Program-made: the position numbers and the translations under genes
The notes under the pieces: model-generated
Databases searched by the model: none
The model's input: only the letters and a program-made list of their open reading frames with translations
What the model was told of the DNA's origin: nothing
In this document: piece by piece, positions 533 to 64,000 of the stretch
How positions within the stretch are numbered: the first letter of the stretch is position 1
Layout: each line of letters opens with the position of its first letter
Assembly: GCA_043816955.1 (NCBI GenBank)
Contig: JBDRHL010000144.1
Coordinates: 3,603-67,602 of the forward strand
Length of the DNA stretch: 64,000 nt
Source of the DNA: Planctomycetota bacterium
GTDB lineage: Bacteria > Planctomycetota > Phycisphaerae > Sedimentisphaerales > CAYZTY01
Reading direction: 5' to 3'

Positions 533-876
533 TGTCGGAAGAAGTCTAGAGGTCAAGGCAAGAAAGAGTGGAGTATATTCACATCTTTGAAGGGGGAGTG
601 TTTGCAAAAATAAACCAAAGAAGTACTTTAGTGTGAGAGGTGGTGTGGGGATTTCGGTTGGGAAGGTATTATTTTTTTAAGAAGACTATTTTATCCTTGT
701 TTTTTTCGTATTTGAGAGTATACTAACGATATTATGGTTGGAGGAGCGGCAGAGAGTGTTTTTATTATTTCACGTCTGAGTAAACGTTCAGCGGATGTTT
801 TTCCAGCGGAGTAACGATCTGTCAACTGCCTGAGGAACGTAAATTACAGATGATTCAAAAAGGTTGGAGGACTAAA

Positions 877-3081: not shown

Positions 3082-3551
3082 AAGGGACTACTGAAAAACC
3101 AAGAAATCGTATAAAGAGCATTGCAGGGGGGTGTTTTTTACCGGACGTTTGGGGGTAAGCTGTCCAGTCAGAGGGTAATTAAGCAAGAGCTTTTTCCCTG
3201 TGGCTGTGGGTTTTTGCAATTTTAAATCAATCTGTTTTTCATGTTATCAGCGGTTTTTTATATGTCGATATTGTAAGCAGCAGCGTGTTTTAGCAATATG
3301 GATAAAGGGGCGGATCAATGAGAAAGACGGGGCAATGTGAGCACTTTGTACGAAAGATCGCCGGAGAGGCCGGGGACATACAGAACGAACATTTTTTGAA
3401 TCGTAAAGTATTGAACGGGGTTGTATCGAGTAAAAACTGTGATGTCAGGCGGAGGCTGCCGGTATATCAGATAGTTTTTCTTTTTCTGCTGGTTTTTGCG
3501 AAGGCAATGAAATCGTTGCATGATTAGGTGTCAAAAAAAGAAAGGGAAGAA

Positions 3552-50125: not shown

Positions 50126-50159
50126 AAAAACCCCGCAGACAGGGAATGCGGGGTTTTTT
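50126..50159. terminator. Bidirectional intrinsic terminator between convergent aroC and the giant gene
   Basis: AAAAA, then CCCCGCA (50131-50137), a 9-nt loop, TGCGGGG (50147-50153) and TTTTTT (50154-50159). Confidence 0.8.
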
Positions 50160-50184: not shown

Positions 50185-53100
50185 TTACGGCACATCACTT
50201 TGTACCGGATACCAGCTCGAGGGGGCTGTTATATTGTGATTCGGGGAGGTGTCGCGTACCCAGACTCTGAAGCGGGCGTCGACATAGGGCCCTCCGATCA
50301 TAACAATATAGTAATTATCGGTCTGCCAGCCGCTGCTCAATCCGCCTATATTACACTCGAAACGGTATTCAACATCATACCTGTCGTCAACAGCAGCTTC
50401 GGCAGTCATTTCCGCGCTCCAATCGAACGAACCTGAACCTGGAACCAACCTTAGCTGAATAAGCCGGCTGGGATTCGGCGTCGGGGGTATCAGGTCAGGT
50501 TCTTCCCAGGTCGCAGCAGCACCTATTGGTGACCAGGCTGTTTCGTTGCGGTTGGTCGACAGATCACGAGCCATGACGCGATAAGTGTATGTTGTGCAGG
50601 GATCAAGGCCTATATCCGTATATGCAGCGTTGCTGCTCACCCAGTTATAGTCAACAACCCAGGTGCTTACATTGCAGTCACCAAGGCATCGTTCGAAGAG
50701 ATACTCGACAGGGCTGATGTCATTGGCTTCTGTAGCCTCCATAGTAATCGCTTCATGCGAGATTGCTCCGGGCCAGATCGCCCAGGTCATAGGATCGGGA
50801 GTCGGCGGGTCGTTGTCTGTTGGAACGGGCGCGTTCATGTCACCTGCAATAACATAGCCGACGAAGGACCACCTGGTTTCGGCGCACCTGGCAGGGTCGA
50901 TGACGCCATAGGCATCGGTTTTTACGTCGCGAGCTTTAACCCTGTAGCCATACTCCAGGTCTTTAGTGAGTCCGGTATCTATATAATCCGGGCGATACTG
51001 CCAATCGCTATCGTGGCAGTTGCCGTAGAAGCAATCGAAGTAGTACTGCACGGGATAGCCGCTGTTATCAACGGCTGTGGCTGCAAGCATACCTATCCTG
51101 GTATCATCCAAAGCCCTTGGTGGAACGTTCCACATCATCGGATCGGGCGTCGGAGGCGTCGATTCGACCTCGCCGTAGTTTATCGCAAACATCGCGTAGT
51201 CAATATTGTCAACCTCGCCATCCCGGTTCATGTCGGTACCGTGGCACCAGTCGGGAGTGGCGCAATCCTGCTCAAGCCAGTGGGTGTTGAATATGACCCA
51301 GTCAAGGAAGTCAACTCTTCCGTCAAAGTTGAAATCGCCGACAATATCTGCGCGGCGGACATAATGATAACCAATATCCAGCCTGCCTTTGTCAACCCTC
51401 AGATCGGTCCGGGTTGTGTGTTTGTACATGTCAAGATAGTTGGCATCGCCACTACCCTTATCAATGCAGGGACTGAAGACAGTCTGGTTCGGATCGCCGG
51501 TGTTCGGGTCGCTGAGGAAGTAATCACCCAAAGCATTGCTGACGAATCGCGGATTCCACAAAGATGTACCATGCAGATTGGTAATTTCGTCCCATATCAG
51601 GGTGCAGCCGGTAATCGGATCAATTCCATAAACCGCAACTGCGCCACCCTGAACGTCACTGTATGAAACACTGACCTCAGACGGCAGATGGATAGGTCCA
51701 AAGCCCGTACCCATAGCAATCTGAGCTCCCAGGCCAGCTGAATTGCTCCAGATAATGCTGTCCAGGACAGATGTGTAGGCAGCATAGGAGCAGAACAAGC
51801 CGCCGCCGTAGCCATTGACAAATCCCTCGCTGGTTACGATGTTATCAGCGATTGTACAACTGGATATAGCAGTTTCGCTGTACTGGTTCACCGAGATGCC
51901 GCCGCCGTCGCGGCCTGCTGTGTTATTCGCTATCAGGCAGTTATGCAGCATCACGTCGTTACCGTCATAGATGCACACGCCGCCGCCGGAAGCAAACGCC
52001 ATGTTGTCTGTGATCTCGCAGTCGGCAACACGGGTATCAGTGTTAAACAGATAAAGCGCGCCACCCGATCCCGCATATGCAGGACCGTTGACTTCACCGG
52101 GGCCGTTGGCCTCGTTGTCGATAAAGCTGCTCATACCTATACGAGTCAGAGCTTCTGAGAGATATATTGCACCGCCGCGATAGGCAAAGTTGTCGATGAA
52201 TTCACTGTCGTCGGCATAAAGCTCTGCCTGTTCGGCATATATCGCGCCGCCGATTGTGGCCTGGTTATCGCTGAATACACAGTTTATAAACCTTGGCGAG
52301 GCGCCAGCATCAAAGGCGACAGCTCCGCCGTAGCTTAAATATGGATCATCACTCAGAGCAACAGCAGCACCTTCGTGGTGGGTTGCGGGGCCGTTAATAT
52401 CAGCGGTATTGTCGATAAAGTTGCAATCCGTGAACCTCGGGGAGCTTTGGGCTGCGCAGAATACCGCTCCTCCGAAACGATCTATTCTGTAGTAATTGTC
52501 AACCCAGTTGATCAGCATTGGTTCGCCGGTTTTTCCGCAGACTCCGCCATAGGCGATGTTACCCTGGAAGGTACAATCGATGAAGTTGGGTTCGCTGGCC
52601 CGATCGCAGTACACTCCGCCACCAAGGCCGCTGTACTTCCAGTACTCTTCGAACGGGCCGTAATCCCACCATGAGCCGTTCGGATCGCCCCATGCGCCGC
52701 CATGGCCTCCGTAAGGTCCTCCACCGGCATCGCCCCCCTTGCCGCCATCTGCGCCTTCTGCCCGGCAGTCTATTATCTTGCAGTTGATAAATGCTGGTTT
52801 ACTGTTCGGACTTATATATACAGCACCGCCGTATGCCCTTCCTGGCCAGCCGCCGTCGCCACCGGGTTTTCCCGGACAACCTGCAGCCCCATTGGCGCCG
52901 TTACCCGGATTGACGCCAGTATTTCTGATGACACAGTTTCTTATCGTCGGAGATGCCGGCTGAGCCCACTCCCAGGAGGCAAGCAACCCTGCGTACCATG
53001 ACCAGCCCCACGGCGAGCCGATCTGAAGAGCACCGCCGTATACCGATCCGGCATTATATCCATCAACACCACAGCCTGACGCATCAAGAGGATCAGGGGT

Positions 53101-56100
53101 AAAGTAAGAGAAATCTCTGAGTGTGAAACCATTTATAATCGTATCAGGCCCAACATTAGTAAACTCGATCCGTTCGCGAAGAATGGTTGAAGCAACAACA
53201 CACGGGTCATCAGGATTTGTGCTGGTCAGGGTTATAGCCTTGCCGTCAATCTCGAATTGCAGGTCGCCTGAGGTATACTCACCCGGTGCAACTATAATCG
53301 TATCGCCGTCCATCGCCTCATCAATCGCGCGTTCGATGGAGGTGTAATCACCCGGAACATCGATATCACGCGGCTGACGATACTCAACGGTAACTATCCT
53401 GTCGGTGTGCATGATGAGCCTGTTGGTAAGCTTCGTGGAGCTATCGTCATCGGTGCCGGTCCATCGTTTTACAAGCCAGCCTGCATAGGGCTGCGCTCTG
53501 ACTGTGACAACCGTACCTTTGAAATACTGATCGGGCCAGATCACAGGAGCTGGATCGAATGTTATCGTTCCATGCCCGCCAATTACATATGCGTTAAGCG
53601 AGACAAGCTCAACCTCATCGGTGTCATAATAGTGATAGCCCATATCGACCAAGCCAATGTCGCCGGTGCTGTAGCCAGGGTCGCCGTAGACCAGGCCGTC
53701 CCAGTTGCCTGTGCGCGTGGTGAACCTCTGCAGGGAGACACTACCTGCTGTAACGCTTCCGTTGTCCACCGCCTCGGACTGATTGATCTGGTCGGGCGGC
53801 TGGCTGAGGTAGTAGCTTCCCAGAGGCCCTGATGCAAAGAGCGGATCACTTGCCTTATGGCCGCCGATGGTGGCAGCATTGAGGGCAGCAAGTTCAGCGA
53901 GATTTGGCGAAGTCGGGTTGTTCGCATCATATGTCCGGAAATTTCTGGCCAGAGAAGCCTTGTAGAAATCACCATGATAATTCTGATAAAACAGCGAATG
54001 TCCCAGCGTTATCCTACCCGGAGTGCTTTCATAGACCGCGATTCTGTTGGACTGGTGGAAAATACAATCGGTGATTTGAGCAGAGGATGTCCAGTCGGTG
54101 AATATGGCGCCGCCGGTGCCGGTGATCTGTTCTATGCTGCTGTCGCTGAAAGTACAGTTACTTATTTTCGGATTCGAGGCAACATACGCGGCGATGGCAC
54201 CACCGTTCTGAGTGGCGTAATTACCTGTAAACAAGCAGTTTTTAATTACCGGTGCTCCGTCACAATTGGTGAGGTAAATCGCACCGCCAACAGCCTGCAG
54301 GCCGGATGCCTCGTTGTTGTTTATGCTGCAATGCTGTATTGTGAGGGACGTATCGACGCAGGTCATTGCGCCGCCGTGACTATTATCACCGGTTGACTTA
54401 TTGCCGCTGATATCACCGGTATCAAACATGACTGTGCTGTCTATAAAGTGCAAGGCCCCGGTCAGTTCAGCATGATTATTCATTACATAGCAGTCGTTAA
54501 ATCCGACTGAGACATTTTTGAAATATACCGCTCCGCCGCGGGTCGCGTTGTTGTCGGCGATAGCGCAACTGTCGAGATTCAGTTCGAGTAAAGTCAGATT
54601 GGCATCGGCATGGACAGCTCCACCATAGCCGGCGGCTGCGTTACCATAGAAAGCGCATTCAACAAGCTCAACATCGCTGTCGGTATCCAAACCGCCGCCG
54701 TCAAGATCAGTTGAGTTTCTAGTGAAAACACAATTATTCAGAACAGCATTGGAATCAGGACCAATATAGACACCTCCACCCTCGTATGCAGCGCTGTTGC
54801 CAATAAAGCCGCAGTTTTCGAATACAGCATTAGTATCACCGGCACAGTATACGCCGCCGCCGAGGTTTTCAACAAAATTGCAATCGGTAATCGTAAGTGC
54901 CATGCTATTAACGTCACTGTAAATACCACCACCCTGATGGTAATACTCCGGATAAATCGGATACCCGCCCCATGCGAATGATTTGGGCGTTATGTGTCCA
55001 TAGTATTGATCATATGCGCCATTACCGACAAACGTAGTGCCTGTGATATTGACAGTACAAATCCCGCTGTGCCAAATTCCACCGCCGAAGCCTGAGCCGA
55101 AGCTGAAACCATTCGGTGCATAGTTACCGAAAATGGGAGGGGTTATGGCAGGGCCCAATCCCCGGCGCCCACCGATGCCGGCAAGGCCGCCTGTCGCCTT
55201 GTTTTCGTTAAAGATGCAGTTGGTGATCCTTGGGCAGGCCTTTGGCGCATAATAAACAGCACCGCCATAGCCATAGCCGAGACCGTCACCACCATTGCCG
55301 CCGCGGCCTTCAGTACCGGTAAGACCCAGTTCCAGCGGGCTTCCGCCCCATCCGCCATTACCGCCTGCGCCACCGCTGGCGCGGTTCTCGATGAAGGTGC
55401 ATTCGCTGATAACCGGGCTGCAGTTAACATCGCAGAAGATTCCACCGCCGAAGCCATCGCCGAGTCCGTCGCCGCCGCGTCCGCCTGGGAGTCCGTTGTT
55501 ACTGGCGTCAATCCAAGTGATACCGCCGCCGCCATGGCCACCCTGAGCGCCGGTAACGACGCAATTCTTGATTACGCACTTGATAATCGAGGGACTGCTG
55601 TTGTTTGTGATGTATATACCGCCGCCATAGGCGTCACCAACCACCTCGACACCGTTCATATCGTTGACATCGATGTTTCCATTGGGATCAATATTTTCAT
55701 CGCCGCCGTACTCACCGCAGACATAGCCGTTCATTATAGTAAGGCCGAGCAGGACGGTATTGGCGTCTTCGCCGCTTTGGAAGATAAACGCGCGGTGGTT
55801 GTCAATCTCGGTGCCGGCGCAGTCGATTACCGTCGAGGCTACGATGTTCGGCTCGTTGGGGTTCATGCCTGTTATTGTGATCGACTTACCTTCCAGGTCG
55901 ATATCCACATTATCCTGGCCGGTGTAAACACCGGGCATGATCCAAACGGTATCTCCGAAGCTGGCTGCATTGACGCCTTCGCCAATGGTCTCATATTCCT
56001 GGCCCGGTCCAACGGTAATAGGACCTGCCACATAGAACTCAACGCGGACGGTCTTGTCGGTATCCATTGTCACTTCGTTTGTAACAGCGCCCCAGGCAGG

Positions 56101-59100
56101 CTGCCTGTCCGTGCCGTACCATCTCTTGAGCCTATAACCCGGCGCGGCGGTTGCGGAAAGCTTAACCACCATGTCCTGCAGAAATACCCCGTTGTGATCA
56201 TCGGGCGGATCGGTTGTGACGGTTCCCTGCCCGATGATTTCAATCGTCAGCCTGCGTGAAACCTTGACAAAGTCAATCGTGACGGTCTTATCCATGTCCA
56301 TAAGCGCAACGTTGGTGCTGTTGACATTGTTAGGCTCAGGCAGACGGTCCCTGATTGTGCCGGCCCAGCGGGTCTGGAAACCGTACGGCGGAGGAGGAAT
56401 AACGCTTATCGGCACCATCGTGTATATGTTGTACAAGCCGTCGTTGGGGTCAAAAGGATCAATATCCGGAATAACGTTCGGCTCATAGTTCGGCAGAATA
56501 TTTGCATCCACATGAAGCTCGATCGTCAGCCTGTATTTCGGCAGGTCGAACAGCGGCTGATGATGATAACCAAGGTCCACATAATTTACGTCAAGCTGGC
56601 CATCGGTTCGGGTCGTATACGTTGCCAGGTTGATGTCCACAGCAAGGTCGCGTCCCATATCGATGCAGTTGCTGTCATACAACTGGCCTGCATCTATATG
56701 ACTGAGGTAATAAGGCCCGACAAAACAGGGGTCGTCATCGATAATATGACTGCCCGGAGCCCAGCCGGTGTTCGGGTCCCAGTTGATGACACAGTTCGGC
56801 TCAACATGAATCGGCTCAGAAGTCTTGAGCAGGGTGATTGCTGCGCCGAGATTCACACGGGGCTTTGTTATATCAACCTTGGTATCCGTTACCGGATCGC
56901 CTGTCAGAATGAGGAGGTTTCTGGCCGCATCAGGTGAAAGATATACACCCATCTCCTGGTAAGCAGCAGACTGAAGGTCAAGAACAGCGCCTGCCGCAAA
57001 GGGACATGCCGAGGATGTTCCATTGAAATTAGGCCAGTAATCGCCGGAGGCATAGCCGGCGGGTCCTGCAATATCCAGGGTATACATAGGATCAGCGGGC
57101 GCAAGAATATCGAGAATGTCGGCTGTATTCGAATAGTCTGTAACCATGTCGGTGGTATCATAAACAGCGCCAACTGATATGATATTGGACATTGCCGCGG
57201 GCCAACTTATGCCATCACCGGCAAAGCCGTCATTGCCTGAAGCAGCCAGGACAGCAATTCCTGCGTCAACAAGTTTTTGAACAGTCACGGCAGCAGCGGG
57301 AAATACCGCGTCGGCAAAAGCCGGATCATCGAAAGGAAAATAAGGTATCCCCCAACTGTTGCTGACCACCTTGAGCGGATAAGCGGCGTTATCATTACGA
57401 TGTTTCAGGCACCAGTCCCAGGCGGCTATACCTGCATCGGTGTACATATCGCCATTTACATCGGAAATCCTCAATGCGTATATCCCGGCGTTATATGCCA
57501 CGCCGCCGATGTAATCCTGGAATTTATACAGTTGACCCGCCGCGATACCGGCACAGGCGGTGCCATGAGCTTCATACGGCGGGTAAGGTTCACCCGGCAT
57601 CGGGTCGTTATCGTCATTGCCGAAGTCGTAGCCCCCGATAACCTTATTATTGGGGAAGCCGCCGCCGCCCAGCCGGGGGTGAGTATAATCAACACCTGTA
57701 TCAACTATTGCGATTGCCAGCCCCTGGCCGTTATATGTAGTGCGGGCAATAAGCGCATTGGCGAGTGGAATCGCCTGAGCTAACATCGGATGAACCTCTC
57801 TAACAGGTTCCACATACGCCACAGCGGGATTTGCCAGGAGCGAGGCCAGGCCGGCCTGAGTGACCTCACCGGAAAATACCGCGGAATTTTCCAACTGATG
57901 CCGCACGGTAAATTGTGCCGGACTGAGGGTTGAAAGCACTGAAGCCTGCAGGTCCGCCACATCCTGTCGCATAACACTGACAGAGGATGCCGAAGCCCAG
58001 TTGACCATCGTCGAACTATACGGCTGAACAAGTGTTGCAATAACCTTGACCCATTGTGCGCCCGCGTTGAACTGATCGTATATCGTATCGCCGTCAATCA
58101 GAACGGCGGTGCCTGTGGGGCGGGGAAGAGTACTACCGATGCCCGGCAGGAGGGAGTTAAAGTCCAGTCCCTTCTGCATATCCACATCACTGTGAGTAAT
58201 ACTGAGTTTGGAAGGTATCGAGAAATACTCATTACCGTTATCAAGCGCAATCTGCGAACCGTAGATACCGTTGTTGCCCCAGATAATTGAATTGATGATT
58301 TCGTTATCACTGCCGTATGCGGCGAAAAAGCCGCCGCCGTAGGAATCAAGGCCATATACCCTGTTGTCAGCAATTGTGCAGTTCTCAATATTCGGTTTGG
58401 CGTACCAGTTGGAGGAAATTCCGCCGCCGTCAACGTGGGCAGTGTTTTTGGTGACGAGACAATTTTTCAGGGTAATTGCGCCATCGAGCGGTGTAAGCGC
58501 ATCACCGCTGAGATAGATGCCGCCGCCGGAGCCGATACTGCGGTTGCCTGTTACGGTGCAGTCGGAAATCACCGCATCGGATGAGGCGCTGTAAAGGCCG
58601 CCGCCAAAACCATAAATTCTGTTAGGCTCGTTGAAGTTAGAGTCTGCAATGTTGTCGCTGAAGATACAGCCTGTGATTTTGATAGTGCTGCGGACAGAAT
58701 ACATACCGCCGCCGAGAAAGGCACTATTTTCACCGAAGTTGCTATCAACAATGTTTATATCACTGACCGATATTGCCCTGACTCCACCACCTACAGGAGC
58801 AAAGTTGCCGATGAAATTGCAGTCATTGACCTCGACAAATGTTGTTGCCGGCGGGAGATTCCTGCCGTCAAAGCACATACCGCCGCCATAGCCTGTATAC
58901 TCATCGCCTGTAAACAACTCGTTCGGATCGTGGGTAGTCTGGTTATTCATTGTTCTGCAGCGTATAAAACGCCCGGTTGAAGCGGGGCCTGTATAGATAC
59001 CTCCTCCGGCACTGGGAATTCTATAGTTCTTTCGAGGCGGCGCCTGGCGACCGAAAGCGGGCCAGCCGCCCTGGCCGCTGATGCTGCCCTGAACATGGCT

Positions 59101-61869
59101 GTCTGTGATATTGCAATCGGTAAATATTGCCGCTGAGCCCCAGGTGCAGGCGAGACTTCCTCCGTGTGCGGTGAAATTATCCGGATGGAGCTGATTCTGG
59201 GGGCTTCCCACATAGCTATCGGTAACTTCAACGAGTCCGCCCACCCCGCCGCGGAAATTCGTGTTGTTTATCCCTGCAACGCCGTTGCCGCCGTCTCCTC
59301 CTCTACCAGCGGTGCAGCGATTATTAATAAAGCTGCAGCTTGTGAAATTTACGCTGGAGAAGAAATCACAGTATACAGCGCCTCCTTCACTGGGGCCCGG
59401 CACGCCGGCATCGCCACCTCTGCCGTCGCCGCCAAATGCAGGATCGGCGCCGGCGCCTCCGTTTGCTCCGTTACCACCATCACCGCTTATCGTATTACAA
59501 TCCCGGAAAACACAATTTATGAATGTCGGGTTTGTCACTATATCGCAGAAGACCGCACCTCCCTGGGCGCTACCCGCTGAGCCGCCATCGCCGCCGCGTC
59601 CGCCTGCTGTGTTGGGATCGTTCGGATCAATGGGGCTGCTTGCGGTGAGGCCAAGTCCGCCATCAGCCGCATCGCCAGAAATGGCATAACAGCCGTCAAA
59701 AACGCAGTTGCGGATGACGGGACTTCCCCAGTTTATATACATGCCTCCTCCGCCGACATTACCGGAATTGCCGCCTTTGCCTCCCGAGGACTTGGAAGGC
59801 ACGTTACACGGATCGGTGCTGAGAGCGCCGGGATTACCTGCGGAAGGAAGGCCTGATTCGACACCACAATTGCGTATTATACAATTTGTAATTAGATGAT
59901 TGCCGTTGACCCCGATGCCCGCACCGAACATCGCGCTGGAATTTAGACCGTCTGAGCCGGGGTTGATAGGCGCCAGACGATTTATCGATCTGCGAAAGGC
60001 GTTGGCAATGGTAAGGTTATTTAATGTTACCTGGCCGGAGCCGCCTGCACCATTCAAAACAAATCCAAACTCCTGCTGCCCGCTGGGATCGATAACCACC
60101 TGGTTCGGATTGCCAACACCGCTGATAGTAATATTCTGATTTACAAAAAATCCTGTGCCGGTGTAATAGCCGGGACTTATAAGAATTGTATCCCCATTGA
60201 CCGCAAGATTCAGAGCGTCCTGAATACTCAGGTAATCATGCTCGCCTGGCACATGATATGTGATGTTGAGGTCAGGCTCAAACAACACTGTAACAATTAC
60301 GTTGGCTGTTACGGTAACTGTGTTGACGTTCATGTTCCAGCCGGGCACATCATCGGTGTTGGTCCATGAAGCCACACGATAGCCCGGAGCAGGATAAGCA
60401 GTTATCGTTACAACCGTGCCGTCAAAAACTGTAATCCTTCGAATACTGACATTTCCGTTTGCGCCGGGTGTAACTGTCAGGGTGTACCTTGGAATCTGTT
60501 CAAACTCAACGGTAACGCTGCGGTTCATGTTCATCATGGCGCGGTATGTATTCGGATCATTCGGATCCAGGTACGGCGCAGCGTTGCTGTCGACCCATTC
60601 TTTTACCCTTATATTCGGATCAGCCGGATAGGCTGTAAGCTCAACCACTCTGTAATGCGGATACGGCTGAGGCGTTGGATGATTGGGATCAATATCACCT
60701 GCTGCGCCAGCAGCTACCACCGCTGTGGTCAGATCGTAATTGGGTACATTAGCATCTATTGCGACCTTATGGTGATAGCCGATATCGACCCGTCCCGCGT
60801 CCGGTGCATAATTCGAATCTGTAACCGCCTTATAATTGGGATCTCCCGTATCCAGAGTGGACAGGGGATCACCGGCGTCGATACAATCACTATAGATAAG
60901 CTGCTGGGAGATATTGCTCAGGAAATAAGGCCCTACCGACAACAACGGATCGATAACAAGATTGGGCTCTGTAAAAATGTTTCCCTGGCCGATATCGCCG
61001 TCCTGAATACACGAATACCTGGCCATACCATCGCAGTTAAAAAGCTCATCACCGTTATTCCAGAGAATTGAATTGACAATCACGGCGGTGCTGTTGTCGT
61101 CGCTTCTGTAAATACCGCCGAAGTTGTTCAGGCCGATATTATCAATTATCGTACAATTTCGAATTTCAGGATTTGCATTGAACAGATAAATCGAACCAAC
61201 ATCGGCGGTTGTGTTTTTGGCGATGGCACAACTTTTCAGAATAGCCGATGAGTCGAAGCAGCATACGGCACCACCGCCTTGAGAGGAAGTATTCTCCGCG
61301 ATTACACTGAAACTAATGGCTGCAGTATCAACTTCGCAATTAACTCCCCCGCCGTAACTGGCAAGATTATGAGTGATGCGACAGTCCGTTACGACAGCCG
61401 ATGAGAAAAACAGATCAATACCGCCGCCGTAGAAGCTTGCCGTATTGCCTGCGCCAGGTAGACCTATGGTACAATTTAAAATGGTCGGTGAAGAATTATC
61501 ACATTCAATACCGCCGCCGAAGTCAGCAAGACCATTGATGATGGTAAAACCGTCAACAACTGAGCTATGTCCTTCACCGCTGTGAAAATAGAATCCCCTT
61601 CCCTGCCCGTTGCAATCGATTATACAATTCTCCGGCCCGTTCTGACTACGAACCACAACAGCTTTACCCTGAAAATCAAGATCAAAGTTACCGGTTCCGC
61701 TGTAATTACCATCCGCAACCAGAACCATATCACCGTTGCCTGCACGGTCAATGCCATCCTGAATTGTCAGGATAGGAGGCACCTCACCAAGGTCCGGCAC
61801 ATGATATGTCAGTCCTGCTGTAAAACCTGTAGACGATAAAAATATCAGAGCGAAAATAATCCGCTTCAT
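50185..61869 (-). CDS. Giant (3,894-aa) secreted modular protein. It has four Pmp-like right-handed beta-helix modules, an embedded I9-propeptide/S8 subtilase, Ig-like spacers, a dockerin-like module and three Fn3-like modules.
   Basis: Uninterrupted ORF. GGAGG lies 6 nt before ATG 61869. Signal peptide MKRIIFALIFLSSTGFTAG. The GG(A/G)(I/V)(Y/F) and FxxC/N rung motifs recur throughout. S8 triad motifs are IAIVDTG, HGTACAG and GTSSACP. Confidence 0.9.
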   Translation of the reverse strand: MKRIIFALIFLSSTGFTAGLTYHVPDLGEVPPILTIQDGIDRAGNGDMVLVADGNYSGTGNFDLDFQGKAVVVRSQNGPENCIIDCNGQGRGFYFHSGEGHSSVVDGFTIINGLADFGGGIECDNSSPTILNCTIGLPGAGNTASFYGGGIDLFFSSAVVTDCRITHNLASYGGGVNCEVDTAAISFSVIAENTSSQGGGAVCCFDSSAILKSCAIAKNTTADVGSIYLFNANPEIRNCTIIDNIGLNNFGGIYRSDDNSTAVIVNSILWNNGDELFNCDGMARYSCIQDGDIGQGNIFTEPNLVIDPLLSVGPYFLSNISQQLIYSDCIDAGDPLSTLDTGDPNYKAVTDSNYAPDAGRVDIGYHHKVAIDANVPNYDLTTAVVAAGAAGDIDPNHPTPQPYPHYRVVELTAYPADPNIRVKEWVDSNAAPYLDPNDPNTYRAMMNMNRSVTVEFEQIPRYTLTVTPGANGNVSIRRITVFDGTVVTITAYPAPGYRVASWTNTDDVPGWNMNVNTVTVTANVIVTVLFEPDLNITYHVPGEHDYLSIQDALNLAVNGDTILISPGYYTGTGFFVNQNITISGVGNPNQVVIDPSGQQEFGFVLNGAGGSGQVTLNNLTIANAFRRSINRLAPINPGSDGLNSSAMFGAGIGVNGNHLITNCIIRNCGVESGLPSAGNPGALSTDPCNVPSKSSGGKGGNSGNVGGGGMYINWGSPVIRNCVFDGCYAISGDAADGGLGLTASSPIDPNDPNTAGGRGGDGGSAGSAQGGAVFCDIVTNPTFINCVFRDCNTISGDGGNGANGGAGADPAFGGDGRGGDAGVPGPSEGGAVYCDFFSSVNFTSCSFINNRCTAGRGGDGGNGVAGINNTNFRGGVGGLVEVTDSYVGSPQNQLHPDNFTAHGGSLACTWGSAAIFTDCNITDSHVQGSISGQGGWPAFGRQAPPRKNYRIPSAGGGIYTGPASTGRFIRCRTMNNQTTHDPNELFTGDEYTGYGGGMCFDGRNLPPATTFVEVNDCNFIGNFAPVGGGVRAISVSDINIVDSNFGENSAFLGGGMYSVRSTIKITGCIFSDNIADSNFNEPNRIYGFGGGLYSASSDAVISDCTVTGNRSIGSGGGIYLSGDALTPLDGAITLKNCLVTKNTAHVDGGGISSNWYAKPNIENCTIADNRVYGLDSYGGGFFAAYGSDNEIINSIIWGNNGIYGSQIALDNGNEYFSIPSKLSITHSDVDMQKGLDFNSLLPGIGSTLPRPTGTAVLIDGDTIYDQFNAGAQWVKVIATLVQPYSSTMVNWASASSVSVMRQDVADLQASVLSTLSPAQFTVRHQLENSAVFSGEVTQAGLASLLANPAVAYVEPVREVHPMLAQAIPLANALIARTTYNGQGLAIAIVDTGVDYTHPRLGGGGFPNNKVIGGYDFGNDDNDPMPGEPYPPYEAHGTACAGIAAGQLYKFQDYIGGVAYNAGIYALRISDVNGDMYTDAGIAAWDWCLKHRNDNAAYPLKVVSNSWGIPYFPFDDPAFADAVFPAAAVTVQKLVDAGIAVLAASGNDGFAGDGISWPAAMSNIISVGAVYDTTDMVTDYSNTADILDILAPADPMYTLDIAGPAGYASGDYWPNFNGTSSACPFAAGAVLDLQSAAYQEMGVYLSPDAARNLLILTGDPVTDTKVDITKPRVNLGAAITLLKTSEPIHVEPNCVINWDPNTGWAPGSHIIDDDPCFVGPYYLSHIDAGQLYDSNCIDMGRDLAVDINLATYTTRTDGQLDVNYVDLGYHHQPLFDLPKYRLTIELHVDANILPNYEPNVIPDIDPFDPNDGLYNIYTMVPISVIPPPPYGFQTRWAGTIRDRLPEPNNVNSTNVALMDMDKTVTIDFVKVSRRLTIEIIGQGTVTTDPPDDHNGVFLQDMVVKLSATAAPGYRLKRWYGTDRQPAWGAVTNEVTMDTDKTVRVEFYVAGPITVGPGQEYETIGEGVNAASFGDTVWIMPGVYTGQDNVDIDLEGKSITITGMNPNEPNIVASTVIDCAGTEIDNHRAFIFQSGEDANTVLLGLTIMNGYVCGEYGGDENIDPNGNIDVNDMNGVEVVGDAYGGGIYITNNSSPSIIKCVIKNCVVTGAQGGHGGGGITWIDASNNGLPGGRGGDGLGDGFGGGIFCDVNCSPVISECTFIENRASGGAGGNGGWGGSPLELGLTGTEGRGGNGGDGLGYGYGGAVYYAPKACPRITNCIFNENKATGGLAGIGGRRGLGPAITPPIFGNYAPNGFSFGSGFGGGIWHSGICTVNITGTTFVGNGAYDQYYGHITPKSFAWGGYPIYPEYYHQGGGIYSDVNSMALTITDCNFVENLGGGVYCAGDTNAVFENCGFIGNSAAYEGGGVYIGPDSNAVLNNCVFTRNSTDLDGGGLDTDSDVELVECAFYGNAAAGYGGAVHADANLTLLELNLDSCAIADNNATRGGAVYFKNVSVGFNDCYVMNNHAELTGALHFIDSTVMFDTGDISGNKSTGDNSHGGAMTCVDTSLTIQHCSINNNEASGLQAVGGAIYLTNCDGAPVIKNCLFTGNYATQNGGAIAAYVASNPKISNCTFSDSSIEQITGTGGAIFTDWTSSAQITDCIFHQSNRIAVYESTPGRITLGHSLFYQNYHGDFYKASLARNFRTYDANNPTSPNLAELAALNAATIGGHKASDPLFASGPLGSYYLSQPPDQINQSEAVDNGSVTAGSVSLQRFTTRTGNWDGLVYGDPGYSTGDIGLVDMGYHYYDTDEVELVSLNAYVIGGHGTITFDPAPVIWPDQYFKGTVVTVRAQPYAGWLVKRWTGTDDDSSTKLTNRLIMHTDRIVTVEYRQPRDIDVPGDYTSIERAIDEAMDGDTIIVAPGEYTSGDLQFEIDGKAITLTSTNPDDPCVVASTILRERIEFTNVGPDTIINGFTLRDFSYFTPDPLDASGCGVDGYNAGSVYGGALQIGSPWGWSWYAGLLASWEWAQPASPTIRNCVIRNTGVNPGNGANGAAGCPGKPGGDGGWPGRAYGGAVYISPNSKPAFINCKIIDCRAEGADGGKGGDAGGGPYGGHGGAWGDPNGSWWDYGPFEEYWKYSGLGGGVYCDRASEPNFIDCTFQGNIAYGGVCGKTGEPMLINWVDNYYRIDRFGGAVFCAAQSSPRFTDCNFIDNTADINGPATHHEGAAVALSDDPYLSYGGAVAFDAGASPRFINCVFSDNQATIGGAIYAEQAELYADDSEFIDNFAYRGGAIYLSEALTRIGMSSFIDNEANGPGEVNGPAYAGSGGALYLFNTDTRVADCEITDNMAFASGGGVCIYDGNDVMLHNCLIANNTAGRDGGGISVNQYSETAISSCTIADNIVTSEGFVNGYGGGLFCSYAAYTSVLDSIIWSNSAGLGAQIAMGTGFGPIHLPSEVSVSYSDVQGGAVAVYGIDPITGCTLIWDEITNLHGTSLWNPRFVSNALGDYFLSDPNTGDPNQTVFSPCIDKGSGDANYLDMYKHTTRTDLRVDKGRLDIGYHYVRRADIVGDFNFDGRVDFLDWVIFNTHWLEQDCATPDWCHGTDMNRDGEVDNIDYAMFAINYGEVESTPPTPDPMMWNVPPRALDDTRIGMLAATAVDNSGYPVQYYFDCFYGNCHDSDWQYRPDYIDTGLTKDLEYGYRVKARDVKTDAYGVIDPARCAETRWSFVGYVIAGDMNAPVPTDNDPPTPDPMTWAIWPGAISHEAITMEATEANDISPVEYLFERCLGDCNVSTWVVDYNWVSSNAAYTDIGLDPCTTYTYRVMARDLSTNRNETAWSPIGAAATWEEPDLIPPTPNPSRLIQLRLVPGSGSFDWSAEMTAEAAVDDRYDVEYRFECNIGGLSSGWQTDNYYIVMIGGPYVDARFRVWVRDTSPNHNITAPSSWYPVQSDVP

Positions 61870-62064
61870 CCTAAGCCTCCAAATGTTATCGAAGTGTCCG
61901 AATTCCGAAGCGTTTCTAATCATAACATATCCTGAAGAAATCATAGCACAAAATCAAAACGTTTATAATGCTATTTCAAAAACTCAAATGCCTTTTGGAT
62001 TATCCGGCGTTTTTTCCCTGAAAACTTTTGATAAATTCACTCCGGATAAGTAAGTCCGCCGGCA

Positions 62065-64000
62065 TTACTGCCTGAGCATCGGGAAAGCCTCGCGCTCTTT
62101 TTCTTCCTTCAATATGATGGTGGGTTTAACCAGAATAAGAAGAATGGCGCTGTCCTTCGACTTGGCTCGGTTCTGGAACAATCTTCCGAACAGCGGCAGC
62201 TTGGAGAAGCCGGGGACACCTTCTTCCGTCTCCGTCTCGCCGGTCAGCTTCTGGCCGCCGATGAGCAGCGTGCCTCCATCCGGAACATTCACGCGCGTGC
62301 TTACATCAGCAGTTTGCATGAGAGGGAGCTGAAGTTTGAACTCCCTCAGGTCTGCTCCGGTGCCGGTTGAGCCTACGTACCGTTCATCGATGCCAAGCAC
62401 GCGGTTAAAAGATGTTGTTATAAGCAGAAGAACATACTTCTTGTCGGCGCTGATGGTGGGGTTGACCGTCAGCACGACCCCGTCGAAAATGGTATCGACC
62501 GTCGGGTCTGCGGTGGTAACAACATTTGCACTTTCGGTACTTATAGTCTGGGTAAGGTCCCAGTCGGAAACATATGCTATCTCATTTTGAATCGTAATCG
62601 TGGCAACTTCGCCGCTGAGGACGGTTACTTTCGGCGCCGTAAGCGTCCTGGCACTGGCATTTGCCTGTGTTGCCTTGACAAGGAAACTGACCTGCAGATC
62701 GTCAAGAATACTGCCATATCCCCCGGTTAGCGTAGCAGCATCAGTGACAAGATCCGACAGACTGCCTGATACACCCGTGTCTGTGGCAGTAGCGAAGGAC
62801 ATGGAATCCTGTTCAACATCAATAATGCCCCACTTGCCGCCCAGGTTACGGAGCCTGAAATCAAGATCGACGCCAATCTGCTCCAGGAAGTTTTCCGTCA
62901 CCGTCAAAAAACGTGCCTCGATGGCAACTTCCTGGCCCACGGATTTGCGCATTTCGTTGAGAAGCTGTCTTATCTGCTCATGTACCTCAGGAGTCTGGGT
63001 GATAATAAGCTGAGTGCCAAAAACCTTGATAGTACCTTCGCCGCCGGTTGAATACCAGGTGTTACGGGCTATTGATTCCTCAATGAGTTCGATGATATCT
63101 GTGGCCCTTTCTTCCACTTGCGCAATGTCAAAAGCTTCAGTAGCACCAGTGCGGCCGCCGGTACGACCAGCACCACCTCCGCGGGTACCGCCTCCTCCTC
63201 TGCCTCCTCCTCCTCCTCCTGTTGTTGCCAAATCTCCGCCTTCGGAGAAGTTCGCAGGTGCGCCAAGAAGCTCGGTTACAGGATAAACGCGCGTAACCAT
63301 ATTGCTCGGAATAGCTTCCCTGGTTGCAATAGTAATGATGCCGTCTTTGACAGTATAACCGATATCAGCAAGGCCGCCCGAGACCGCATCAAGCAGAAGC
63401 TCAAGGCCCTTGCCAAGAGTGACCTGCGCGATACCTTCGAAATTGATCTGTGTGGTTTGCTCGACGTACGCATTTTCGCTGAGGTCTCGCCACCTGACAA
63501 AAATCGTAAGGGGGGGAGAAACAGCATTTCTGATAGTCTCGATTGCCTGAGCGAATTCCGTGTCCAGCCTCAGTGCCGACAGATCAACCACTTCTGCAAG
63601 CTGTTTGTAGATGGCGGCATCACGAGGGTCTGCCCCTGCGAGTTCTTCTGGTGCTCGTTTTTCGACAATCTGGGGCCAATCTCGCGGGAATGTAATCTCG
63701 TTGGCATGAGGTATTGAGGATCGCTGCGCTTCGACCAGAAGGTCAAGCTCCTGTTTTTCCGTGTCTCTGATTACCTCAATCTGGCGCTGGTAGTTAAGCG
63801 TATCTTCAACCATTTGCTTCAGGCTCAATGCATGGCTGTGGTGTTCATCAAGATTCAGAAGCATCTCCAGCGATCCAAGCGCATCCCTGTAACGCCGCTG
63901 CTCCACAAAAGCAAGCGAGCTATTCATGTATTCTTCGATTTGTTTTCTACGATCCTCTTCCTGCTGAGCACGGTGCCTGGTCTGAAGCGCTGCGGCTTCC
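62065..64000 (-). CDS. Secretin (GspD/PilQ superfamily), 5' end beyond the window edge
   Basis: C-terminal secretin signature ...VPGFSKLPLFGRLFQNRAKSKDSAILLILVKPTII. The frame stays open upstream of the track's ATG 63927 to nt 63999. The N-terminal part is helical and TPR-like. Confidence 0.85.
   Translation of the reverse strand, partial: EAAALQTRHRAQQEEDRRKQIEEYMNSSLAFVEQRRYRDALGSLEMLLNLDEHHSHALSLKQMVEDTLNYQRQIEVIRDTEKQELDLLVEAQRSSIPHANEITFPRDWPQIVEKRAPEELAGADPRDAAIYKQLAEVVDLSALRLDTEFAQAIETIRNAVSPPLTIFVRWRDLSENAYVEQTTQINFEGIAQVTLGKGLELLLDAVSGGLADIGYTVKDGIITIATREAIPSNMVTRVYPVTELLGAPANFSEGGDLATTGGGGGGRGGGGTRGGGAGRTGGRTGATEAFDIAQVEERATDIIELIEESIARNTWYSTGGEGTIKVFGTQLIITQTPEVHEQIRQLLNEMRKSVGQEVAIEARFLTVTENFLEQIGVDLDFRLRNLGGKWGIIDVEQDSMSFATATDTGVSGSLSDLVTDAATLTGGYGSILDDLQVSFLVKATQANASARTLTAPKVTVLSGEVATITIQNEIAYVSDWDLTQTISTESANVVTTADPTVDTIFDGVVLTVNPTISADKKYVLLLITTSFNRVLGIDERYVGSTGTGADLREFKLQLPLMQTADVSTRVNVPDGGTLLIGGQKLTGETETEEGVPGFSKLPLFGRLFQNRAKSKDSAILLILVKPTIILKEEKEREAFPMLRQ

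What the first reader, a model, noticed from the sequence alone, without database searches (positions are those of the whole stretch)
50185..61869. 3,894-aa secreted polymodular beta-helix protein with a repeated head, rungs, cap and Ig-spacer grammar
A single 11.7-kb ORF occupies 18% of the window. After a signal peptide there are four modules, approximately 61795-60770, 60265-56560, 56030-53650 and 53385-51355.
- Each module opens with a conserved head: (Y)HVP/V(G)PG...I(Q/E).A(I/L)..A..GD(T)(I/V).(I/V).PG.YTG.
- Each continues with many ~22-25-aa rungs carrying GG(A/G)(I/V)(Y/F) and (F/I)..C.(F/I)..N. These are the two signature motifs of chlamydial Pmp repeats and right-handed parallel beta-helices.
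- Each closes with a cap: DP.F...G.Y(Y/F)LS...S.CID.G...(T)TRTD...(V/L)D(I/L/M)GYH(H/Y).
- The modules are separated by Ig-like spacers: RYTLT(V/I)..G.G.V......G..V...A.P..GY.(V/L)..W(T/Y)GTD......N.(V/I)(T/M)(V/M)..(D/N)..VTVEF, which is InlB-B-repeat-like.

The C-terminus has a dockerin-like module and three Fn3-like modules. It lacks any sorting signal I recognise (no PEP-CTERM, although the first gene in this window has one, and no LPXTG or T9SS CTD). The size, the regular grammar and the embedded protease (separate finding) make this the most unusual locus here.
Basis: partly seen in the sequence, partly recalled or inferred. Interest (0 to 1): 0.8.

Follow-up and report, generated by a model that had tools for sequence, protein, structure and literature searches.

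The report
Giant secreted beta-helix protein with protease
This is a real 3,894-residue secreted protein built from four beta-helix rods, Ig-like spacers, one subtilisin-type protease nested inside the second rod and a dockerin tail; dozens of similar, unstudied giants exist in Phycisphaerae-type Planctomycetota, so it is well organised but not unique.

Summary
Window 50185-61869 (-) is one uninterrupted ORF of 3,894 aa, and the same sequence is already in public data. It has a signal peptide and four paralogous right-handed beta-helix modules (25-32% identity), each with a head, rungs and a cap. It also has five InlB-B-repeat spacers, a type I dockerin and three mutually homologous Fn3-like repeats.

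A complete pro-subtilisin (I9-like propeptide plus S8 with Asp1390, His1435, Asn1546 and Ser1619) sits in the loop between the last rung and the cap of module 2. That loop is 489 aa there, against 24-53 aa in the other modules.

No long DNA repeats suggest assembly collapse. At least 39 cluster representatives carry the same nested unit, 22 of them over 2,500 aa (up to 5,597 aa), with 2-6 modules in the ones that look complete. All use the same grammar and come from Phycisphaerae/Planctomycetota metagenomes. A secretin gene neighbours the giant gene in 5 of 6 loci where the upstream side is visible.

Most likely it is a dockerin-tethered extracellular fibre displaying an active protease. Function is inferred, not shown. 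I rate it a new variant of known kinds, of moderate interest.

The parts
61813..61869 (-). Sec-type signal peptide, aa 1-19 (MKRIIFALIFLSSTGFTAG)
   Evidence: Read from the sequence: a basic n-region, a 13-aa hydrophobic core and a small-residue c-region. Complete homologues start the same way. No other hydrophobic segment exists apart from the S8 core. No predictor was run.
60766..61812 (-). Beta-helix module 1, aa 20-368 (head, about 11 rungs, cap)
   Evidence: The AF2 model has pLDDT above 90 for aa 21-300. Foldseek finds Pel9A at 4.5e-5 and RbtA at 1e-4. M1 is 40-48% identical to the first modules of other giants.
60259..60738 (-). Two InlB-B-repeat (Flg_new_2) spacer domains, aa 378-457 and 461-537
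   Evidence: Pfam PF18998 scores 1.1e-20 with two stretches. In the AF2 model the first copy is a beta sandwich with pLDDT 80-86.
58174..60258 (-). Module 2, N-terminal part: head and rungs up to the last-rung motif ITHSDV, aa 538-1232
   Evidence: Paralogous to M4 at 32% over 462 aa, E 9e-36. In the AF2 model, rungs aa 1010-1230 mostly have pLDDT above 85.
57775..58122 (-). I9-like subtilisin propeptide, aa about 1250-1365, nested in module 2
   Evidence: The AF2 model gives a beta-alpha-beta-beta-alpha-beta fold with pLDDT 85-96. Foldseek aligns 440-475 columns to unautoprocessed pro-subtilisin E and pro-Tk-subtilisin, which covers propeptide plus catalytic domain. Pfam I9 itself is not hit.
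56896..57729 (-). Peptidase S8 catalytic domain, aa 1381-1658. Asp1390 (57700-57702), His1435 (57565-57567), Asn1546 (57232-57234), Ser1619 (57013-57015).
   Evidence: Pfam PF00082 scores 1e-38. PDB 6f9m scores 1.5e-19, with the catalytic residues aligned. These residues are invariant or nearly invariant in 36 homologues. Positions were checked.
56557..56802 (-). Cap of module 2, aa 1690-1771, which returns after the protease insertion
   Evidence: It is 35-45% identical to the caps of M1, M3 and M4. The distance from last rung to cap is 489 aa here, against 24, 53 and 38 aa in M1, M3 and M4.
56026..56538 (-). Two InlB-B-repeat spacer domains, aa 1778-1866 and 1870-1948
   Evidence: Pfam PF18998 scores 1.4e-7 for the second copy. 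Blastp aligns aa 1802-1945 to aa 392-530 at E 2e-14, covering both copies.
53629..56019 (-). Beta-helix module 3, aa 1951-2747
   Evidence: Pfam Beta_helix scores 6.5e-22 with four stretches. M3 is paralogous to M4 (E 9e-28).
53377..53601 (-). One InlB-B-repeat spacer domain, aa 2757-2831
   Evidence: Pfam PF18998 scores 4.3e-8.
51361..53364 (-). Beta-helix module 4, aa 2836-3503
   Evidence: Pfam Beta_helix scores 2e-14 and Chlam_PMP 9.1e-10. M4 is 40-43% identical to the last module of other giants.
51184..51351 (-). Type I dockerin, aa 3507-3562, with two Ca-binding loops (DFNFDGRVDFLD and DMNRDGEVDNID)
   Evidence: Pfam PF00404 scores 32.4 bits against a cut-off of 22.9. It aligns to the dockerin of PDB 2vn5_B. 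The cap-dockerin-Fn3 tail is conserved in 283 proteins at E<=1e-10.
50188..51159 (-). Three Fn3-like repeats, aa 3571-3686, 3687-3792 and 3793-3894. The protein ends without a sorting signal.
   Evidence: The repeats are 33-35% identical to each other, E 1e-13 to 1e-4. They have weak Fn3-type hits only. Homologues of this region hit Pfam fn3 at 5.3e-12.
62065..63927 (-). Secretin gene immediately upstream on the same strand (620 aa); a possible export partner
   Evidence: Pfam Secretin scores 4.3e-26. It is generic across MshL, PilQ and GspD and below all equivalog cut-offs. A homologue at 40-48% identity lies next to the giant gene in L001, L007, L008 and L009.
50131..50144 (-). Terminator-like hairpin plus T-run about 40 nt after the stop codon
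   Evidence: Consensus scan only, and not above chance.

Best explanation
**Shown: the architecture.**
- The gene encodes a soluble, acidic precursor of about 410 kDa with a Sec-type signal peptide.
- Four right-handed parallel beta-helix rods are joined by small Ig-like InlB-B-repeat domains.
- One complete pro-subtilisin (I9-like propeptide plus S8 with an intact catalytic set) is inserted in the loop between the last rung and the cap of rod 2.
- The C-terminal tail is a type I dockerin followed by three Fn3-like domains.

**Shown: the family.** It belongs to a family of Phycisphaerae/Planctomycetota giants built from the same parts. The proteins retrieved have one protease-bearing module as a rule, and the ones that look complete have 2-6 modules.

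**Inferred: how it works.**
1. The protein is exported by Sec.
2. It crosses the outer membrane, possibly through the secretin encoded next to it.
3. It folds into a segmented fibre several tens of nanometres long.
4. It is tethered by its dockerin/Fn3 tail to a cohesin-type partner or the cell surface.
5. There it displays an active subtilase and beta-helix binding surfaces for capturing and degrading polymeric, protein-rich or glycoprotein substrates. This resembles the cohesin/dockerin 'planctosome' idea.
6. As in other subtilases, the propeptide probably acts as an intramolecular chaperone and is cut autocatalytically. Here that cut would split the chain into pieces of about 140 and 270 kDa.
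For: **ORF and start.**

**No assembly artefact.**
- No collapse-prone DNA repeats occur inside the gene.
- Uninterrupted homologues of 4,762-5,597 aa occur in four independent assemblies.

**Beta-helix modules.**
- Pfam hits M3 and M4.
- The modules are paralogous to each other.
- The AF2 model of M1 is a confident beta-helix, with Foldseek matches to Pel9A, RbtA and PL6 lyases.

**Nested pro-subtilisin.**
- Pfam S8 scores 1e-38.
- The catalytic Asp, His, Asn and Ser align to solved subtilases and are conserved in homologues.
- The model matches unprocessed pro-subtilisins over propeptide plus catalytic domain.
- The loop between last rung and cap is 489 aa in M2, against 24-53 aa in the other modules.

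**Tail.** The dockerin scores above the Pfam cut-off, and the tail is conserved in 283 proteins.

**Family grammar.**
- 39 cluster representatives carry the contiguous rung-I9-S8-cap unit.
- Their architecture strings follow the same order of parts.

**Secretin neighbourhood.**
- A secretin lies next to the giant gene in the window, L001, L007, L008 and L009, and is absent in L006.
- The second-closest structural match, RbtA, is a type II secretion substrate (PMC5861075).

**Cohesin/dockerin context.** Cohesin/dockerin systems with non-cellulolytic cargo are reported or proposed in Phycisphaerae (PMC6461901) and in Sedimentisphaerales (PMC11557425).

**Solubility.** No transmembrane-like segment exists beyond the signal peptide.
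Against: **No experimental data.** Nothing exists for any family member on secretion, surface location, substrate or autoprocessing.

**Weak structural support at the key point.** The AF2 model of the S8 and cap region is poor (pLDDT 35-50 over large parts). I could not test whether the cap packs back onto rod 2.

**No partner seen.** No cohesin gene was seen in the window, and only part of its ORFs were scanned.

**Weak secretin link.**
- The secretin is generic and no other type II secretion genes are visible.
- It is absent upstream of the homologue in L006.
- No promoter or terminator signal stands above chance.

**Selection bias.** The 'one protease per giant' rule comes from a search seeded with the protease, so giants without S8 would not have been retrieved.

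**Enzymatic rods not excluded.** The closest folds are polysaccharide lyases.
Confidence: 0.55

Rival explanations
1. It is a polysaccharide-degrading polyprotein. The beta-helix modules would be lyases, hydrolases or esterases (PL9/PL6/CE8-like) strung together, with the protease as an accessory.
For: - The best structural matches of M1 are pectate lyase Pel9A (4.5e-5), PL6 chondroitinase and alginate lyases, and pectin methylesterases.
- Family members carry Pfam Pel9A-like_beta_helix hits.
- One cultured relative is named 'probable pectate lyase C' by UniRef (P0171).
- A family profile weakly hits PL6 alginate lyases in the PDB (1e-4).
Against: - Sequence identity to the lyases is only 9-16% and TM-scores are 0.25-0.46.
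- No window module reaches any lyase or esterase Pfam cut-off. Chondroitinas_B scores 0.029 and NosD 9e-4, both below cut-off.
- The rungs are very regular Pmp-type repeats, which is more typical of adhesin-like beta-helices.
- Catalytic residues were not tested.
Confidence: 0.2
2. It is a structural surface fibre or adhesin whose protease acts only in cis. The S8 would mature the polyprotein into separate rods, and would not feed the cell.
For: - The retrieved giants carry one nested S8 as a rule, at a fixed place in a module.
- S8 and C39 domains in giant Omnitrophota proteins have been proposed to cleave the giants themselves (10.1101/2023.11.21.568195).
- The Pmp-type repeats are those of known adhesins.
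Against: - I could see no conserved cleavage motif at module borders beyond the structural GYH[HY] cap end.
- The S8 is 45-63% identical to a very large set of ordinary secreted subtilases fused to many unrelated domains. That fits a general degradative protease.
Confidence: 0.18
3. It is a weapon or attachment organelle for interaction with other cells (predation or antagonism), as proposed for giant Omnitrophota proteins that are preceded by type II secretion-like loci.
For: - The gene neighbours a secretin.
- Omnitrophota giant genes are also preceded by secretion-system genes, including gspD.
- Some of those giants carry dockerin and peptidase domains.
Against: - The domain content is different: no transmembrane regions, no SecA-like domain and no toxin domain.
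- The neighbours are housekeeping genes such as aroA and aroC.
- I know of no report of a predatory lifestyle in this lineage; this rests on my own knowledge and was not tested.
Confidence: 0.05
4. It is an assembly artefact or pseudogene, meaning several genes fused or a repeat expansion.
For: Related loci L001, L002 and L004 show the gene cut into several ORFs.
Against: - Those contigs also break housekeeping genes. aroC is in pieces in L002 and the secretin is in pieces in L001. Sequencing error is therefore the simpler reading.
- The window ORF has no internal DNA repeat longer than 50 nt.
- Four other assemblies give uninterrupted genes of 4,762-5,597 aa.
Confidence: 0.02

Closest known systems
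Right-handed parallel beta-helix surface proteins of Planctomycetota and other phyla (database names: 'right-handed parallel beta-helix repeat-containing protein', 'choice-of-anchor Q domain-containing protein', 'predicted outer membrane repeat protein')
   Same: The head, rung and cap consensus is the same in 2,310 hits. The family cap consensus is DPLF..GDY.L...SPCIDAG...VDMG..E.
   Different: Most of the listed hits are proteins of 450-950 aa, many of them partial, and the family consensus runs into a second module. The window protein strings four modules together and nests a protease in one. The NCBIfam scan reported no match to any choice-of-anchor model at E<=0.1.
Chlamydial polymorphic membrane proteins (Pmp; type V autotransporter adhesins)
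   Same: It has the GGA(I/L/V) and FxxN repeat motifs. Pfam Chlam_PMP scores above its cut-off in M4.
   Different: No PMP middle domain and no autotransporter beta-barrel were found. Instead there is a dockerin/Fn3 tail.
Pro-subtilisins (subtilisin E, Tk-subtilisin, Tk-SP, PCSK9) and subtilase autotransporters, which carry a protease on a beta-helical stalk
   Same: It has an I9-type propeptide plus an S8 domain with the full catalytic set. The design of a protease carried on a beta-helix recalls subtilase and SPATE autotransporters; that comparison rests on my own knowledge.
   Different: The whole pro-enzyme lies inside a loop of a beta-helix module rather than at the N-terminus. Propeptide cleavage would therefore cut the carrier protein in two.
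Cohesin-dockerin assemblies outside cellulolysis: the hypothetical 'planctosome' of freshwater Phycisphaerae (PMC6461901) and the dockerin proteins of Limihaloglobus sulfuriphilus (PMC11557425)
   Same: It is a dockerin-tagged peptidase-bearing protein in the same class or order, with no glycoside hydrolase attached.
   Different: The planctosome model uses M12B and M14 metallopeptidases with a lamin-tail anchor protein. Here the cargo is a 410-kDa beta-helix fibre with an S8, and no cohesin partner has been identified.
Giant Omnitrophota proteins preceded by type II secretion-like loci (10.1101/2023.11.21.568195)
   Same: It is a very large secreted protein next to a secretin gene, with a peptidase domain that might process it.
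   Different: It is ten times smaller, has no transmembrane or SecA-like regions, has a different repeat type, and only an orphan secretin is visible.
Pel9A (PL9 pectate lyase) and Rhombotarget A (RbtA)
   Same: These are the best fold matches of module 1. RbtA is exported by type II secretion, and so is Pel9A according to my own knowledge.
   Different: Sequence identity is 14-16%. No lyase family model is matched, and RbtA's own function is unknown.

Membership tests
Right-handed parallel beta-helix (Pfam PF13229 / pectate-lyase-like fold) | Significant match to the family HMM | tested here: met
   M3 scores 6.5e-22 (78.3 bits) and M4 2e-14 (53.9 bits), against a cut-off of 25.9. M1 and M2 have no direct hit but are paralogous to M3 and M4.
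Right-handed parallel beta-helix (Pfam PF13229 / pectate-lyase-like fold) | Three-dimensional fold of stacked right-handed rungs | tested here: met
   The AF2 model of M1 has pLDDT above 90 for aa 21-300 and regular three-strand rungs. Foldseek matches Pel9A, RbtA, chondroitinase B and tailspikes at probability 1.00.
Chlamydial Pmp family (autotransporter adhesins) | Repeated GGA(I/L/V) and FxxN motifs | tested here: met
   Chlam_PMP scores 38.2 bits in M4 (cut-off 20.6) and 17.6 bits in M3. The motifs occur 27 and 25 times, against about 0.4 expected.
Chlamydial Pmp family (autotransporter adhesins) | PMP middle domain and C-terminal autotransporter beta-barrel | tested here: not met
   The Pfam scan of all nine pieces at E<=0.1 shows neither. 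The C-terminus is a dockerin plus Fn3-like repeats.
Subtilases (MEROPS/Pfam S8) with I9-type propeptide | S8 HMM match and the catalytic Asp, His and Ser plus the oxyanion Asn | tested here: met
   PF00082 scores 133.8 bits. Asp1390, His1435, Asn1546 and Ser1619 align to PDB 6f9m and are conserved in 36 homologues.
Subtilases (MEROPS/Pfam S8) with I9-type propeptide | N-terminal propeptide of the I9 fold directly before the catalytic domain | tested here: met
   The AF2 model gives a confident beta-alpha-beta-beta-alpha-beta unit at aa 1260-1361. The best Foldseek matches are unprocessed pro-subtilisins with 440-475 aligned columns. The Pfam I9 HMM itself gave no hit.
Subtilases (MEROPS/Pfam S8) with I9-type propeptide | Autocatalytic propeptide cleavage and proteolytic activity | not testable with these tools
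   This needs recombinant module 2, wild type against Ser1619Ala.
Type I dockerin / cohesin-dockerin assemblies | Dockerin HMM above cut-off, with two Ca-binding loops | tested here: met
   PF00404 scores 32.4 bits against 22.9. The loops DFNFDGRVDFLD and DMNRDGEVDNID can be read.
Type I dockerin / cohesin-dockerin assemblies | Cognate cohesin or scaffoldin in the same genome | not testable with these tools
   Only 64 kb of the genome is available, and none of the ORFs scanned has a cohesin. One S8 homologue elsewhere carries a cohesin domain (P0084).
Polysaccharide lyases PL9 / PL6 | Match to a lyase family model | tested here: not met
   No Pel9A-like or pectate lyase hit was found. Chondroitinas_B scores E 0.029, or 13.8 bits against a cut-off of 24. 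A family profile against the PDB gives PL6 only at 1e-4 over about 100 residues of generic rungs.
Polysaccharide lyases PL9 / PL6 | Catalytic Ca2+ ligands and the Lys or Arg base in place | not tested
   This needs residue-level structural superposition, which was not available.
InlB B-repeat (Pfam PF18998 Flg_new_2) | HMM match above cut-off | tested here: met
   Scores are 73.8, 31.8 and 33.5 bits, against a cut-off of 23.6.
Fibronectin type III | HMM match | tested here: inconclusive
   The window repeats give no fn3 hit and only Pur_ac_phosph_N at 0.003-0.036. DCC Fn3 scores 0.22 in the PDB search. A homologue of this C-terminal region at 36% identity hits fn3 at 5.3e-12.
Type II secretion substrate | Genetic linkage to a secretin or T2SS, and T2SS-dependent export | tested here: inconclusive
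   A secretin is adjacent in 5 of 6 loci with a visible upstream side. The secretin is below every equivalog cut-off, and no GspE, GspF or GspG genes are seen. Export itself is not testable here.

The most novel reading that the evidence does not exclude
The nested pro-subtilisin would make this a self-splitting fibre.

- Autocleavage at the I9/S8 junction would cut the 410-kDa chain into a head piece of about 140 kDa (M1, spacers, M2 rungs, propeptide) and a tail piece of about 270 kDa (S8, M2 cap, M3, M4, dockerin).
- The two pieces would stay together only because the cap of module 2 returns to complete the rod. An alternative is that the propeptide stays bound, as in PCSK9.
- The whole assembly would be exported by a dedicated orphan secretin encoded next to it.
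- Module number (2-6) would be varied by recombination among ancient, position-specific module types.

That would be a new way of building and regulating a surface protease.
Probability: 0.15. Interest if true: 0.7.

Novelty: new variant of a known kind. Interest (0 to 1): 0.45.

Why it matters
- Phycisphaerae and Sedimentisphaerales are widespread anaerobic polymer degraders in sediments. Their largest secreted proteins are essentially unstudied.
- This analysis gives a clear parts list and grammar for one such family:
  - head-rungs-cap modules and Ig-like spacers;
  - one pro-subtilisin nested in a fixed loop of one module;
  - a dockerin/Fn3 tail.
- It also shows that module number varies among related genomes and that a secretin gene is a recurrent neighbour.
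- If the dockerin tethering and the secretin link are real, the family would extend cohesin-dockerin assemblies and secretin-dependent export to giant proteolytic fibres in Planctomycetota.
- The nested pro-enzyme also poses a neat, testable question in protein folding and processing.
- None of this overturns existing knowledge. All parts are known families, and the public databases already hold dozens of members.

Tried and rejected
- **Whole-protein homology search.** It timed out, so I searched three pieces instead.
- **Exact look-ups.** Look-ups of the giant protein with two alternative starts, and of aroC, found nothing in the contig index. The protein later turned up in the representative library.
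- **Species-genome scan.** The lineage is inferred only from the names of homologues.
- **NCBIfam.** It gave no match to any choice-of-anchor model or any sorting signal.
- **Profile search of the PDB.** It added only weak hits on generic rungs.
- **Rfam and tRNA scans of the window.** Both were empty.
- **Promoter and terminator scans.** Results around the gene were at chance level.
- **Literature searches.** Searches for this architecture in Sedimentisphaerales and Planctomycetota found no description.
- **Assembly collapse.** Considered and rejected: there are no long repeats.
- **Pmp membership.** Considered and rejected: there is no barrel or middle domain.
- **Recent tandem duplication of modules.** Considered and rejected: each module is closer to its positional counterpart in other genomes (34-48%) than to its neighbours in the same protein (25-32%).


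Full report
**1. The observation**

The minus strand of the window carries one open reading frame from 61944 to 50185. The ATG at 61869 is preceded by GGAGG and gives 3,894 aa starting MKRIIFALIFLSSTGFTAG.

The representative library returned a public protein of exactly 3,894 aa whose residues 1001-1810 match my query end to end (P0359, NCBI, on a 79-kb contig). The public gene call therefore uses the same start.

Inside the gene the longest direct DNA repeat is 50 nt at 64-74% identity. Nothing would make an assembler collapse or expand it.

The mature product is about 410 kDa with pI 4.3. It has no hydrophobic segment apart from the signal peptide and the S8 core.

**2. Anatomy**

Internal blastp shows four paralogous modules at 25-32% identity:

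| Module | Residues |
|---|---|
| M1 | aa 20-368 |
| M2 | aa 538-1771 |
| M3 | aa 1951-2747 |
| M4 | aa 2836-3503 |

- The caps are 35-45% identical.
- The rung motifs are far above chance: 27 and 25 matches, against about 0.4 in shuffles.
- Pfam finds Beta_helix in M3 (6.5e-22) and M4 (2e-14), and Chlam_PMP in M4 (9e-10).
- Pfam finds InlB-B-repeat (PF18998) in all three spacer regions, Peptidase_S8 (1e-38) in M2, and Dockerin_1 (32.4 bits, above cut-off) after M4.
- A fifth spacer copy is shown by blastp.
- M1 and M2 have no Pfam hit. An AlphaFold2 model of aa 21-545, built on 40 homologues, gives a right-handed beta-helix with pLDDT above 90 for aa 21-300.
- In the PDB that model matches Pel9A (4.5e-5), Rhombotarget A (1e-4), PL6 lyases, pectin methylesterases and phage tailspikes.
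- The three C-terminal repeats are 33-35% identical to one another. They do not hit Pfam fn3 themselves, but homologues of this region do (5.3e-12).

**3. The protease is nested**

M4 residues 3358-3406 align to residues 1181-1229 of M2. The M2 cap (1717-1771) aligns to the other caps.

The distance from the last-rung motif ([YH]Sx[IVLF]) to the cap motif (DPxF) differs sharply between modules:

| Module | Last rung to cap (aa) |
|---|---|
| M1 | 24 |
| M3 | 53 |
| M4 | 38 |
| M2 | 489 |

What sits in the extra ~450 aa of M2 is a complete pro-enzyme:

- The model of aa 1001-1810 has a confident beta-alpha-beta-beta-alpha-beta unit at aa 1260-1361.
- Its best PDB matches are unprocessed pro-subtilisin E, pro-Tk-subtilisin, ProN-Tk-SP and PCSK9. 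These align over 440-475 columns, which covers propeptide plus catalytic domain.
- Asp1390, His1435, Asn1546 and Ser1619 align to the catalytic residues of solved subtilases.
- Those residues are invariant or nearly so in 36 homologues.

The model is poor for much of the S8 and for the cap. I could not test whether the cap packs back on the rod.

**4. Relatives**

The three piece-wise homology searches show that each part belongs to a very large set of Planctomycetota proteins (Phycisphaerae, Sedimentisphaerales). Sources name them 'right-handed parallel beta-helix repeat-containing', 'choice-of-anchor Q', 'predicted outer membrane repeat protein' or 'S8 family serine peptidase'. The family consensus has the same head, rung and cap.

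The exhaustive representative search with aa 1001-1810 found at least 39 clusters (at 50% identity) that carry the contiguous rungs-propeptide-S8-cap unit. Of these, 22 are longer than 2,500 aa and the longest is 5,597 aa.

I mapped the window's parts onto 41 of these proteins:

- The grammar is signal peptide, then repeated head-cap modules with spacers between most of them.
- As a rule one module carries I9-S8 before its cap.
- The chain usually ends with cap, dockerin and one to four Fn3-like repeats.
- Proteins that look complete have 2-6 modules.
- The protease-bearing module can be the first, second, third or last.

Each window module is closer to its positional counterpart in other giants than to its neighbours in the same chain (25-32%):

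| Window part | Identity to counterpart in other giants |
|---|---|
| M1 | 40-48% |
| M4 | 39-43% |
| M2 rungs | 37-41% |
| M3 | 33-36% |
| I9-S8 | 61-63% |

The modules are therefore old types that have been recombined, not recent tandem copies.

One caveat applies. This set was retrieved with the protease, so 'one S8 per giant' is biased.

**5. Genomic context**

In the window the giant gene is preceded on the same strand by a secretin gene (62065-63927; Pfam Secretin 4.3e-26). It converges on aroC and aroA.

| Locus | Source | Giant gene | Neighbours |
|---|---|---|---|
| Window | this study | four modules, 3,894 aa | secretin upstream; aroC and aroA convergent |
| L001 | 913-kb contig; aroC 74% identical | two modules, about 2,490 aa, one frameshift | same order as the window |
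| L002 | 73-kb contig | at least seven caps and two S8 domains over more than 20 kb | aroC downstream |
| L008 | SPAdes assembly | uninterrupted, 5,597 aa | secretin directly upstream |
| L007 | Logan assembly | uninterrupted, 5,585 aa | secretin, then aroC and aroA inverted, then the giant |
| L009 | JGI metagenome | uninterrupted, 4,873 aa | as L007 |
| L006 | NCBI MAG | uninterrupted, 4,762 aa | neither secretin nor aro genes |

L002 is cut by many frameshifts, which also break aroC there. I read this as sequencing error.

In total, a secretin at 40-48% identity neighbours the giant gene in 5 of 6 loci where the upstream side can be seen. The secretin is generic and below all NCBIfam equivalog cut-offs. 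No other secretion genes are visible.

**6. How it most likely works**

*Shown:* the architecture, an intact catalytic set, a dockerin with two Ca-binding loops, no membrane anchor, and a recurrent secretin neighbour.

*Inferred:*

1. The protein is exported by Sec.
2. It passes the outer membrane, possibly through the neighbouring secretin. The second-best fold match, RbtA, is a type II secretion substrate (PMC5861075). Pel9A, the best match, is one too, from my own knowledge.
3. It folds into a segmented fibre of rigid rods and Ig-like joints.
4. It is tethered through the dockerin/Fn3 tail.
5. It displays an active subtilase for capturing and degrading polymeric substrates.

Cohesin/dockerin systems carrying peptidases have been proposed for freshwater Phycisphaerae (the 'planctosome', PMC6461901). 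A cultured Sedimentisphaerales strain has a Coh-Doc-Coh protein and 13 dockerin proteins without cellulases (PMC11557425).

Because the pro-enzyme is internal, normal propeptide cleavage would cut the chain into pieces of about 140 and 270 kDa. Whether they stay together is the most interesting open point.

**7. Rivals**

- **Enzymatic lyase rods.** The fold matches support this, but no family model does.
- **Structural adhesin with a cis-acting maturation protease.** This is not excluded.
- **Predation or attachment organelle, as in Omnitrophota giants**. Domain content differs.
- **Assembly artefact.** This is effectively excluded.

**8. Novelty and verdict**

Every part is a known family, and the databases already hold dozens of members with automatic names. 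The searchable literature has no description of this architecture.

I rate it a new variant of known kinds: beta-helix surface proteins, carrier-borne subtilases and dockerin-tagged proteins. The distinctive points are:

- the pro-subtilisin nested in a fixed loop;
- the position-specific module types;
- the variable module number;
- the recurrent secretin neighbour.

It is typical for its lineage rather than exceptional.

Noticed in passing
window 850-3081 (+): The first gene has five CarboxypepD_reg repeats. The window therefore encodes at least two dockerin-tailed secreted proteins.
   Followed up: partly
window 62065-63927 (-): The secretin has a long Gly/Arg-rich low-complexity linker (GGGGGGRGGGGTRGGGAGRTGGRTG) before its secretin domain. 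No other secretion-system genes are visible. Its homologues neighbour the giant gene in four other loci.
   Followed up: partly
window 45015-47363 (+): A 782-aa FG-GAP/VCBS beta-propeller protein with an N-terminal hydrophobic leader and a weak dockerin-like stretch lies just before aroA and aroC.
   Followed up: no
window 21034-22761 and 22767-24443 (+): Two adjacent paralogous genes each fuse a Na/Pi cotransporter to a PhoU domain.
   Followed up: no
Homologues P0363, P0369, P0373, P0378, P0381, P0389 (N-termini): Six giant homologues share a conserved stretch N(L/F)SGW(S/N)K(F/S/V)M just before the signal peptide. It probably comes from a conserved 5' leader that was read as protein because an upstream start was called. 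It is absent from the window gene.
   Followed up: no
L001 9629-9776; L002 whole locus; L004 1-12535: In these ENA contigs the giant gene is cut into overlapping ORFs in different frames. Housekeeping genes are broken too (aroC in L002, the secretin in L001). I take this as error-prone assembly rather than real gene splitting.
   Followed up: partly
L006 8001-22289 and L007 4355-21112: Other family members carry extra inserted domains. P0362 has VWA/VWA_4 and P0365 has Choice_anch_L, so the scaffold tolerates cargo other than the protease.
   Followed up: no
window 60001-62000: G+C drops to 0.47 over the 5' end of the giant gene (module 1), against 0.53-0.54 over the rest of the gene. GC skew changes sign at about 50 kb, where the coding strand switches.
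   Followed up: no
aa 640-960, 2080-2300 and 2960-3140 of the giant protein (window about 58990-59950, 54970-55630, 52450-52990): Many rungs of M2-M4 are double units of 48-61 aa. A Gly-rich stretch (for example GDGGNGANGGAGADPAFGGDGRGGDAG) alternates with a normal rung, and homologues conserve this pattern. Its structural role is unknown.
   Followed up: no
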